A DNA stretch of 64,000 bases, taken from the NCBI RefSeq assembly GCF_036507355.1, contig NZ_AP027877.1; one strand, 5' to 3'. The notes beneath the pieces are model-generated. The model was not told the DNA's origin. It did not search any database and saw only the letters and a program-made list of their open reading frames with translations. Numbering within the stretch: the first letter of the stretch is position 1; every line of letters starts with the position of its first letter. A program made the position numbers and the translations under genes. This DNA comes from Escherichia coli. Lineage in GTDB: Bacteria; Pseudomonadota; Gammaproteobacteria; Enterobacterales; Enterobacteriaceae. This document shows positions 52,734 through 53,843 of this stretch, piece by piece.

Positions 52734-53843
52734 CTACCGCTCTTCATCCAGTTGTAACGCCACATACAGCAGCAACCTGTCATCAAAATTGCCCAAATCA
52801 AGCCCGGTCAGTTCCGATATACGATTAAGCCGATACTCCAGGGTATTACGATGAATAAACAACGCCTTTGACGTTGCCAGCGGTTGCACATTGTGACGAA
52901 ACCACGCCGCCAGCGGTCGCGCCAGTTCGTTGGCCTGCCAGTCGCCACGCAAACTGTCGAGTAACACAGGTAACATCAGATCCTGATAAAAATAGCAGCG
53001 ACTTTCTGGCATCCGCTGTTTACCCACCACCATCGTCGTTTTCGCCGTACGATAGGATCGGGCAATACTGCCAGGACCGGTAAAATAGTTGCCCAGTGAA
53101 ACGCGAAAACGCAGCTGGCCGTACTCTTTCATGCGGGTAATCAGTTGTTCAACTCGCTTACGATGATCTTCTGCATCCCAGCGCCCAAAAGAGTTCAACG
53201 CCGGTTTCAACACCACCATTTCGGTTAGCGAGACAATCGCCACCAGATTATTACGCTCGGGCGTAGTCAGCGCGTTTTGCAGTTGTTGTAACTCCGCCAT
53301 TGCGCTGTCCACACCAAGCTGACCGCAGTCGACCTCAACAATAGCCACCACTCGCGGTTGATTGAGATCGATCCCCAGCCGTTGCGCCCATTCAGTAAGT
53401 GCGGGAGTATTCTCCTCTGCCTGAATCAGGTTCATCACCAGTTCCTCCCGCAAACGGCTATCCTGCGCCAACAAGTGCATCAACCGCGACTGTTCCAGCA
53501 TCATTTCAGCCGTCATGCAGACCAGTTCGCCATATTTACGCAGATTCTCTGGTTCACCTGTCAGGCCAATTACGCCGACAATTTCACCTTCCAGCCGTAA
53601 CGGTAGATTAATCCCTTGCCGCACACCGTGCAGATGACGTGCCACCGCGTCATCGATATCGACGACTCGTCCCTGTGAAAGTACCAGCAATGCACCTTCG
53701 TGCAATTCACCAATACGCTCACGATCGCCGCTGCCGATAATTCGCCCACGGGCATCCATTACGTTGATATTGGTATCGATGATGCGCATGGTACGTGCCA
53801 CGATATCCTGCGCCATTTTGGTATCAAGATGCCAGCCAGCCAT
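52734..53843 (-). CDS. cdaR: carbohydrate diacid regulator CdaR (SdaR), PucR-family; about 369 aa here
   Basis: Starts MAGWHLDTKMAQDIVARTMRII..., C-terminal PucR HTH (...SKALFIHRNTLEYRLNRISELTG...); ORF track begins 6 codons upstream at an alternative start. Confidence 0.88.
   Translation of the reverse strand: MAGWHLDTKMAQDIVARTMRIIDTNINVMDARGRIIGSGDRERIGELHEGALLVLSQGRVVDIDDAVARHLHGVRQGINLPLRLEGEIVGVIGLTGEPENLRKYGELVCMTAEMMLEQSRLMHLLAQDSRLREELVMNLIQAEENTPALTEWAQRLGIDLNQPRVVAIVEVDCGQLGVDSAMAELQQLQNALTTPERNNLVAIVSLTEMVVLKPALNSFGRWDAEDHRKRVEQLITRMKEYGQLRFRVSLGNYFTGPGSIARSYRTAKTTMVVGKQRMPESRCYFYQDLMLPVLLDSLRGDWQANELARPLAAWFRHNVQPLATSKALFIHRNTLEYRLNRISELTGLDLGNFDDRLLLYVALQLDEER

What the first reader, a model, noticed from the sequence alone, without database searches (positions are those of the whole stretch)
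52734..53843. cdaR appears about 16 codons shorter than the K-12 reference (possible 48-bp in-frame deletion)
The longest possible reading frame here is 375 codons, and the protein from the conserved MAGWHLD start is 369 aa. I recall K-12 CdaR as 385 aa, with extra residues between ...ELARPLA and AWFRHNVQ..., just upstream of the C-terminal PucR-type helix-turn-helix. In this window the junction reads ctg gcg | gcg tgg (about 52905..52910, minus strand), so a deletion between short CTGGCG direct repeats is a plausible mechanism. If real, it could alter activation of the glucarate/galactarate/glycerate genes. The K-12 length and inserted segment are from memory and unverified.
Basis: partly seen in the sequence, partly recalled or inferred. 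Interest (0 to 1): 0.3.

Follow-up and report, generated by a model that had tools for sequence, protein, structure and literature searches.

The report
Recurrent 48-bp in-frame deletion in cdaR
This E. coli strain's sugar-acid regulator gene cdaR really has lost 48 bases (16 amino acids) by slippage between two short repeats; the same rare deletion has arisen independently in many E. coli lineages and probably weakens the regulator, though that is untested.

Summary
The window's cdaR (52734-53843, minus strand) encodes 369 aa, against 385 aa in K-12 MG1655 b0162 and O157. The only differences are a clean 48-bp in-frame gap (residues 311-326) and S173C. The breakpoint lies inside an 8-bp perfect direct repeat, CGCTGGCG (11/12 with flanks), whose two copies are 48 bp apart in intact genes. 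That is the classic footprint of a short-homology (slippage) deletion.

The identical deletion occurs on at least 8 different synonymous cdaR haplotypes and in 11 different flanking backgrounds in public assemblies. It is nevertheless rare: 0 of 5,426 complete RefSeq E. coli genomes, and 0 metagenome contigs against more than 120 with the intact junction. So this is a recurrent mutational hotspot. Deletions of 81 bp and 105 bp start at the same spot in other strains.

The lost segment is the tip of the helix-loop-helix that joins the sensor domains to the HTH DNA-binding domain. It contains residues conserved in 74-98% of 94 family members (L314, D318, L323, T326), and no homologue lacks it. 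cdaR is otherwise under strong purifying selection (47 synonymous and 2 nonsynonymous variable sites). A weakened or inactive activator is the most likely outcome (about 0.6), but function was not tested. This is an ordinary class of mutation of modest interest.

The parts
52734..53843 (-). cdaR coding sequence, deletion allele (369 codons plus TAG stop; ATG at 53843-53841)
   Evidence: ORF list. 368/369 aligned residues are identical to K-12 and O157 CdaR. Synteny degP-cdaR-yaeH-yaeI-dapD matches K-12.
53844..53861 (-). In-frame upstream extension to a GTG (gives the 375-codon maximal ORF). It is not the annotated start in K-12 or O157.
   Evidence: The 375-aa form is absent from the public protein collection.
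52908..52915 (-). Deletion junction: the single retained copy of the 8-bp repeat CGCTGGCG. In intact genes a second copy lies 48 bp away and the 48 bp between the two copy starts are missing here.
   Evidence: Alignment A1; 9 equivalent cut positions at nt 928-936; repeat family D1 in K-12 with 48-bp spacing.
52909..52920 (-). Retained 12-nt repeat unit GCGACCGCTGGC (copy 1 of the 3-copy family in intact cdaR)
   Evidence: the repeat finder on K-12 cdaR gives copies at L003 7387, 7435 and 7468, with 100/83/92% identity.
52876..52887 (-). Third repeat copy GCAACCGCTGGC. It is the partner of copy 1 in the independent 81-bp deletion allele found in other strains.
   Evidence: L006-L008 allele.
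52752..52919 (-). PucR-type C-terminal HTH domain (Pfam PF13556 HTH_30), residues 309-364. It now begins at profile position 3.
   Evidence: hmmscan gives 76.3 bits for the window protein and 79.7 bits for the intact protein, with profile positions 3-58 against 1-58.
53031..53411 (-). GGDEF-like domain (PF17853), residues 145-271, intact
53427..53828 (-). Sugar-diacid recognition domain (PF05651), residues 6-139, intact
53325..53327 (-). Codon 173 TGC (Cys) where K-12 and O157 have AGC (Ser). This is the only other change relative to the closest full-length allele.
   Evidence: Position 173 is variable in the family. Full-length C173 alleles exist elsewhere.

Best explanation
Origin (shown): intact cdaR carries a three-copy direct repeat (GCGACCGCTGGC-like) because the peptide motif [RQ][PT]LA occurs three times. 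Misalignment between copies 1 and 2 (8 bp perfect, 11/12 with flanks, 48 bp apart) removed one repeat copy plus the spacer, which is exactly 48 bp, so the frame is kept. The site is a hotspot. The identical deletion has occurred independently in many E. coli backgrounds, and 81-bp (copies 1 and 3) and 105-bp deletions begin at the same place in other strains. In this window's clone the allele also carries S173C. Whether the misalignment happened during replication or during repair is inferred, not shown.

Consequence (inferred): the deletion removes residues 311-326. These are the C-terminal half of the connector helix (H302-317, equivalent to MabR alpha13), the DNNG loop, and the N-terminal half of the first helix of the HTH effector domain (H322-332, equivalent to MabR alpha14). 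The HTH proper, the recognition helix and both sensor domains remain. By coincidence the upstream sequence restores an L-x-x-P-L-A-A-W-F pattern in place of L-x-x-T-L-A-A-W-F, but with proline replacing the near-invariant threonine and with the sensor-to-HTH connection 16 residues shorter. The most likely result is an activator that positions or folds its DNA-binding domain poorly. That would reduce or abolish induction of gudPXD, garPLRK and garD by glucarate, galactarate or glycerate, making this a hypomorphic or null allele that arises repeatedly and does not persist long.
For: Deletion and repeat structure.

Recurrence: the exact Δ16 protein on the consensus S173 background is indexed in 69 blocks of the collection, with 10 different contexts retrieved. 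Carriers show at least 8 synonymous cdaR haplotypes, including one identical to K-12's. Their hemL-degP flanks differ by 39-178 SNPs per 8.7 kb, giving 11 backgrounds.

Rarity: no junction match in 5,426 complete genomes. The junction is found in 0 metagenome contigs, against more than 120 with the intact junction.

Structure: the AlphaFold2 model of the intact protein has pLDDT 95.9, with H302-317, a loop at 318-321 and H322-332. The Δ16 model keeps the HTH helices, but pLDDT at the junction falls to 64. The closest solved relative, MabR (9f80), has its sensor and HTH effector domains joined by helices alpha12 and alpha13.

Conservation: in 94 family members at 29-59% identity, none lacks the segment. 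L314 is present in 80/94, D318 in 70/94, L323 in 86/94 and T326 in 92/94.

Purifying selection on cdaR: 47 synonymous and 2 nonsynonymous variable sites.

CdaR is an activator whose loss lowers gud/gar expression: PMC8170033 and PMC11077982.
Against: No functional measurement exists for this allele. The Pfam HTH_30 score barely changes (76.3 against 79.7 bits). AlphaFold2 still predicts the overall fold, with mean pLDDT 93.1 and pTM 0.83. The junction regenerates much of the helix's hydrophobic pattern. Two carrier lineages were sampled 9 and 11 times, so the allele is at least not strongly counter-selected in the short term. The gud/gar target operons of this strain lie outside the window and could not be inspected. 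The number of independent origins is inferred from haplotypes, and very short gene-conversion tracts are not formally excluded.
Confidence: 0.6

Rival explanations
1. Tolerated, near-neutral length polymorphism. The trimmed helical hairpin re-closes using the restored L-x-x-P-L-A-A-W-F sequence, CdaR Δ16 still binds DNA and activates, and the allele recurs only because the repeat makes it mutationally frequent.
For: HTH_30 is still detected at 76.3 bits. The AF2 Δ16 model retains all domains and the HTH helices. The allele persists in clones sampled 9 and 11 times. No secondary damage to cdaR is seen in ten backgrounds, which share an identical protein.
Against: None of 93 diverse homologues tolerates loss of this segment, and it holds four strongly conserved residues, including T326 in 92/94, which is replaced here by Pro. 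Junction pLDDT drops from ~96 to 64. The allele stays very rare and sits at the tips of lineages although it arises repeatedly, which argues against full neutrality under the strong purifying selection seen.
Confidence: 0.25
2. Positively selected, altered-function allele. Shortening the sensor-to-HTH connector makes CdaR constitutive, or null in a way that is beneficial in some niche (for example a particular gut state or laboratory passage), and selection rather than mutation bias explains why the same in-frame event is seen again and again.
For: The same event occurs in 11 backgrounds. All three deletions at the hotspot are in frame. cdaR, garK and gudP are reported as adaptive targets in E. 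coli evolving in inflamed mouse gut (bioRxiv 10.64898/2026.05.27.728231). cdaR was mutated in chlorhexidine-adapted K-12.
Against: The repeat geometry alone predicts recurrence, and in-frame spacing follows from the peptide repeat. Frameshift alleles also exist (P0002, P0014), so being in frame is not exclusive. The overall frequency is very low, with no large clonal expansion seen, 0 of 5,426 complete genomes and 0 metagenome hits. No niche information was available for carriers.
Confidence: 0.1
3. One ancestral deletion spread among lineages by homologous recombination, rather than many independent slippage events.
For: E. coli recombines. L011, L016 and the window share the same cdaR haplotype across the junction while having different flanks, so some carriers may share one event.
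Against: Five different local haplotypes directly flank the junction (sites 831/873/915 and 996/1017/1030). Whole-gene haplotypes match those of full-length alleles of the respective backgrounds, for example K-12's. Transfer would require repeated conversion tracts shorter than about 130 bp.
Confidence: 0.04
4. Artefact: a sequencing or assembly error, or just a different start-codon annotation.
For: None found.
Against: The start codon is the same as in K-12. The gap is internal. The exact protein is present in independent NCBI and Logan assemblies, including a 4.64-Mb contig. Repeats of 8-12 nt are too short to collapse assemblies.
Confidence: 0.01

Closest known systems
E. coli K-12 CdaR (SdaR/YaeG, b0162), activator of the gudPXD, garPLRK and garD operons
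   Same: Orthologue at the same locus (degP-cdaR-yaeH), with 368 of 369 aligned residues identical and the same three Pfam domains.
   Different: It lacks residues 311-326 (connector helix end, loop, and start of the first effector-domain helix) and carries S173C. Activity of this form is unknown.
MabR (Rv2242) of M. tuberculosis and BAD_0249 (PDB 9f80, 3onq), the only solved PucR-type C-terminal regions
   Same: GGDEF-like domain joined by two connector helices to an all-alpha HTH effector domain. The CdaR L323-x-x-T326-L327 motif aligns with MabR L347-x-x-T350-L351 in helix alpha14.
   Different: Only ~20% identity, and a different N-terminal sensor (globin-like in MabR, diacid-recognition/GAF-like in CdaR). 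No natural or engineered connector deletion has been described for them in the paper read (PMC11617747).
Short-direct-repeat (slipped-mispairing) deletion hotspots, classically described in E. coli lacI (recalled from the literature, not checked here)
   Same: The deletion end points lie in short direct repeats, one copy is retained, the deleted length equals the repeat spacing, and the same event recurs. The closer repeat pair (48 bp) is seen far more often than the more distant one (81 bp).
   Different: Here it is observed as natural standing variation across wild E. coli lineages rather than in a selected laboratory mutant collection. The rate and RecA-independence were not measured.
Lineage-specific loss of glucarate/galactarate use in Salmonella Typhi (PMC11077982)
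   Same: The same CdaR-controlled pathway is impaired by subtle mutations without obvious gene decay.
   Different: In S. Typhi, CdaR itself is functional and the lesions are in GudT and GudD. Here the regulator is the altered component and the phenotype is untested.

Membership tests
CdaR / PucR-type transcriptional regulators | N-terminal sugar-diacid recognition domain (PF05651) | tested here: met
   E = 1.7e-49, residues 6-139, full profile.
CdaR / PucR-type transcriptional regulators | Central GGDEF-like domain (PF17853) | tested here: met
   E = 1.6e-17, residues 145-271. Fold matches to 9f80 and 3onq (on the intact protein's model).
CdaR / PucR-type transcriptional regulators | C-terminal PucR HTH domain (PF13556), complete | tested here: inconclusive
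   It is detected well above threshold (76.3 bits against a cut-off of 27), but the first two profile positions are missing and the conserved Thr of the L-x-x-T-L motif is replaced by Pro.
CdaR / PucR-type transcriptional regulators | Conserved-length connector between the GGDEF-like and HTH domains | tested here: not met
   All 94 aligned family members keep the segment, with only 1-4 residues of length variation in the loop. The window protein lacks 16 residues.
E. coli cdaR orthologue (b0162) | Same chromosomal position and near-identical sequence | tested here: met
   Gene order degP-cdaR-yaeH-yaeI-dapD, and 99.7% nucleotide identity outside the gap.
E. coli cdaR orthologue (b0162) | Activates the gud/gar operons in response to glucarate, galactarate or glycerate | not testable with these tools
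   This needs reporter or growth assays. The target operons lie outside the window.
Short-homology (slippage-type) deletion | Direct repeats at both ends of the deleted segment in the ancestral sequence, one copy retained, and deletion length equal to repeat spacing | tested here: met
   The CGCTGGCG copies are 48 bp apart in K-12 and O157. One copy is left in the window, with 9 equivalent breakpoints.
Short-homology (slippage-type) deletion | Recurrence of the identical event in independent lineages (hotspot behaviour) | tested here: met
   At least 8 cdaR haplotypes and 11 flank backgrounds carry it.
Short-homology (slippage-type) deletion | RecA-independent origin during replication | not testable with these tools
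   This requires genetics (fluctuation tests in recA+ and recA- strains).

The most novel reading that the evidence does not exclude
The 48-bp deletion is not just a mutational accident. It is a repeatedly selected 'one-step switch' allele: the built-in repeat lets E. coli lineages quickly change CdaR output (off, or locked on) when oxidised-sugar availability changes, for example in inflamed as against healthy gut or during laboratory carriage. That would make the repeat a contingency-like site in a metabolic regulator.
Probability: 0.08. Interest if true: 0.55.

Novelty: new variant of a known kind. Interest (0 to 1): 0.3.

Why it matters
CdaR controls use of glucarate and galactarate, oxidised sugars that matter for Enterobacteriaceae growth in the antibiotic-treated or inflamed gut. 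A strain with a crippled CdaR would lack that niche advantage and would score negative in the corresponding phenotypic tests, even though all pathway genes look intact. Automated annotation still calls this protein plain 'CdaR'. The recurrence also has a practical consequence: the deletion is homoplasic, so it should not be used as a phylogenetic marker. It is a clean natural example of a short-repeat deletion hotspot. Beyond that, it is an ordinary loss or alteration allele of a non-essential regulator.

Tried and rejected
1. Start-codon or annotation explanation: rejected. The ATG is the same as in K-12 and the gap is internal.
2. Shigella-type lineage marker or general genome decay: not supported. 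Across the 64-kb window compared with K-12, the other structural differences are one IS600 insertion, two intergenic or edge length differences and a few 1-bp indels. A name attached to the 385-aa O157-type sequence labels it Shigella sonnei, so that full-length form is on record for S. sonnei.
3. Single-lineage origin: rejected after exact look-ups and haplotype analysis.
4. The first 'absent from complete genomes' claim rested only on top-ranked BLAST rows. It was re-tested with a junction 40-mer that cannot seed on intact genes, and there was no match.
5. The metagenome and species-representative scans for the junction found nothing. A control with the intact junction showed the metagenome scan was informative.
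6. Geometric analysis of the AlphaFold models (the distance between residues 310 and 327, and contacts of the deleted segment) was not possible because coordinates are not exposed.
7. Literature searches for a description of this deletion found none. Most 'CdaR' hits concern unrelated proteins (the c-di-AMP cyclase regulator and Streptomyces CdaR).
8. The Δ105 allele (L009) could not be placed by my naive flank comparison, because its gene call starts at M10 and offsets the coordinates. I did not pursue it.

Full report
**1. The observation**

The window contains a minus-strand ORF at 52734..53861 (375 codons from a GTG). From the ATG at 53843 the protein is 369 aa and begins MAGWHLDTK. It lies between degP and yaeH, as cdaR does in E. 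coli.

K-12 MG1655 cdaR (b0162) is annotated at 182463-183620, which is 1158 bp or 385 codons. BLASTP of the window protein against K-12 CdaR gives 368 identities, one 16-residue gap and one substitution, S173C. O157:H7 TR01 gives the same result. At the DNA level there is one clean 48-bp gap and no other indel.

The difference is not a start-codon artefact.

**2. How the deletion arose**

- In intact cdaR, the repeat finder reports a three-copy direct repeat, GCGACCGCTGGC / ACGAACGCTGGC / GCAACCGCTGGC, with start-to-start spacings of 48 and 33 bp.
- These copies encode the recurring peptide motif RPLA / RTLA / QPLA.
- Copies 1 and 2 share a perfect 8-mer, CGCTGGCG (11 of 12 with flanks).
- The window keeps one copy at 52908-52915. 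Its upstream flank comes from copy 1 and its downstream flank from copy 2.
- Nine breakpoint positions are equivalent.
- The deleted length equals the repeat spacing. This is the standard footprint of slipped mispairing between short direct repeats. Whether it happened during replication or repair is inferred, not shown.

**3. It is real, and it is recurrent**

*The window's own allele.* The exact 369-aa protein is already in public collections under E. coli accessions, on 9 contigs (one of 4.64 Mb) that share the window's gene neighbourhood. One 21-kb contig differs from the window by a single SNP. So the window's allele (Δ16 + C173) marks a small clone.

*All four combinations exist*:

| Allele | Public occurrences |
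|---|---|
| Δ16 + S173 (consensus background) | Indexed in 69 blocks of the collection; 10 different contexts retrieved |
| Δ16 + C173 (this window) | 9 contigs |
| Full length + C173 | 7 contigs |
| Full length + S173 | More than 1000 contigs |

*The carriers are unrelated.*
- They show at least eight distinct synonymous cdaR haplotypes. One is identical to K-12's and one is very divergent.
- Five different local haplotypes directly flank the junction.
- Their 8.7-kb hemL-degP flanks differ by 39-178 SNPs, giving eleven backgrounds. One of these is 5 SNPs per 21 kb from K-12.
- Independent recurrence is by far the simplest reading. Spread by recombination would need repeated conversion tracts shorter than about 130 bp.

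*Other deletions at the same spot.* An 81-bp in-frame deletion between copies 1 and 3 (one lineage, L006-L008) and a 105-bp in-frame deletion (L009) begin within the same ~4 bp. Frameshift alleles also exist nearby.

*The allele is rare.*
- A junction 40-mer that cannot seed on intact genes finds nothing in 5,426 complete RefSeq E. coli genomes.
- The junction 32-mer is absent from the metagenome and species-representative collections.
- The control with the intact junction finds more than 120 metagenome contigs.

**4. What is removed from the protein**

*Domains.* Pfam finds Diacid_rec (residues 6-139), GGDEF_2 (145-271) and HTH_30 in both forms. HTH_30 scores 76.3 bits here against 79.7 bits intact, and now starts at profile position 3 rather than 1.

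*Model of the intact protein.* An AlphaFold2 model built on 94 diverse homologues is confident (pLDDT 95.9, pTM 0.87). It shows H286-298, H302-317, a loop at 318-321, H322-332, then the HTH (H337-343 and H348-362) and H369-381.

*Closest solved relatives.* These are the C-terminal fragment of MabR/Rv2242 (9f80) and BAD_0249 (3onq). In MabR the GGDEF-like sensor domain and the all-alpha HTH effector domain are joined by helices alpha12 and alpha13 (PMC11617747). By the sequence alignment, CdaR H302-317 corresponds to alpha13 and H322-332 to alpha14, with CdaR L323-x-x-T326-L327 matching MabR L347-x-x-T350-L351.

*The deleted piece.* Residues 311-326 are therefore the tip of the alpha13-loop-alpha14 hairpin: the end of the connector, the loop, and the start of the first effector-domain helix.

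*Conservation.* In the 94-sequence alignment (29-59% identity to CdaR) no homologue lacks this segment, and length varies only by 1-4 residues in the loop. L314 (80/94), D318 (70/94), L323 (86/94) and T326 (92/94) are conserved.

*What the junction restores.* Because the repeat also repeats at the peptide level, the junction recreates E-L-A-R-P-L-A-A-W-F where the intact protein has L-L-R-R-T-L-A-A-W-F. The leucines are restored, but proline takes the place of the near-invariant threonine.

*Model of the Δ16 protein.* It keeps all domains and the HTH helices (pLDDT 93.1, pTM 0.83). It breaks the region into short helices (302-307 and 312-316), and local confidence drops to 64 from about 96. 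AlphaFold is not a reliable judge of mutational effects, so this is only weak evidence either way.

**5. Selection context**

- Among 16 cdaR alleles from different backgrounds there are 47 synonymous and only 2 nonsynonymous variable sites (S173C and A316T). CdaR is under strong purifying selection in E. coli.
- The window's gene differs from the closest full-length allele only by the deletion and one nucleotide, with no synonymous change. The other ten carrier backgrounds retrieved encode an identical Δ16 protein. The events are therefore recent and sit at lineage tips.
- This fits an allele that arises often and does not persist, meaning it is mildly deleterious, or useful only transiently.
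- S173 is a variable position in the family, so S173C is probably neutral.

**6. Likely consequence**

CdaR activates the glucarate, galactarate and glycerate genes. A cdaR frameshift in K-12 lowered gud/gar transcripts (PMC8170033), and the pathway's logic is laid out in PMC11077982.

My estimates for the Δ16 allele, all inferred:

| Outcome | Probability |
|---|---|
| Hypomorphic or null activator | ~0.6 |
| Tolerated variant | ~0.25 |
| Selected altered-function allele | ~0.1 |

The estimate for the first outcome rests on the conservation of the segment, its position between the sensor and DNA-binding domains, and the allele's distribution. The third outcome gains some plausibility from reports that cdaR, garK and gudP are adaptive targets in the inflamed mouse gut. 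None of this was measured. The target operons are outside the window.

**7. Comparison with what is known, and novelty**

The gene is the known cdaR, and the mutation class (deletion between short direct repeats) is textbook. I found no paper describing this deletion or its recurrence in the searchable library, although the protein sequence itself is deposited and annotated simply as 'CdaR'. I file it as a new variant of a known kind, with modest interest. Its main added value is the demonstration that it is a homoplasic hotspot allele rather than a lineage marker, and that it probably causes a cryptic metabolic-regulation defect.

Noticed in passing
window ~18348-19609 (ORFs 18391-19209 and 19245-19547, minus strand): An IS600 (IS3-family) element is inserted in yaeF (K-12 position ~216739-216743), splitting it into ORFs 18074-18394 and 19563-20174. 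No complete RefSeq E. coli genome matched across the insertion junctions; the best hits cover only the IS itself (94% of the query).
   Followed up: partly
public loci L006-L008 (cdaR at 5001-6077 in L006 and L007, 2351-3427 in L008) and L009 (5001-6026): Other natural in-frame cdaR deletions start at the same ~4 bp as the window's. One is 81 bp, between repeat copies 1 and 3 (358-aa protein, one lineage lacking yaeI). The other is 105 bp (protein ...NELA|LFIH...). Frameshift alleles (P0002, P0014) also fall in this region, so the 3' part of cdaR is a small mutational hotspot.
   Followed up: partly
window 53325-53327 (codon 173 of cdaR): S173C (AGC to TGC). The same substitution also occurs in full-length cdaR in unrelated backgrounds (P0183; L020-L022), so it is itself recurrent or recombining. 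The position is variable in the family.
   Followed up: yes
window 2928-3125: About 200 bp are present here that K-12 lacks at the yafD/yafE junction (K-12 231941-231966). This looks like a longer 5' end of yafE in this strain, or a K-12-specific deletion.
   Followed up: no
window 62705-62738: The fhuB-hemL intergenic spacer is 32 bp here against 155 bp in K-12 (173445-173601). K-12 probably carries a repetitive extragenic element that is absent here.
   Followed up: no
window 22738, and 23518/23521: There is a 1-bp insertion relative to K-12 14 nt before the tilS stop codon (K-12 213615), which would change the last few residues of TilS. A compensating -1/+1 pair lies 3 bp apart inside tilS.
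   Followed up: no
window 40000-64000 as a whole: The closest of 5,426 complete RefSeq E. coli genomes is only ~98.9-99.0% identical over 24 kb, and K-12 is 98.6-98.9% identical. The source lineage, or at least this chromosomal segment, is therefore not closely represented among complete genomes. The best hits are small-genome (4.5-4.8 Mb) strains.
   Followed up: partly
window 52907-52914 (minus strand), at the deletion junction: The junction sequence GCTGGCGG differs from the Chi recombination hotspot GCTGGTGG by one base. Whether this has any bearing on breakage or repair at the site is unknown; it is purely an observation.
   Followed up: no
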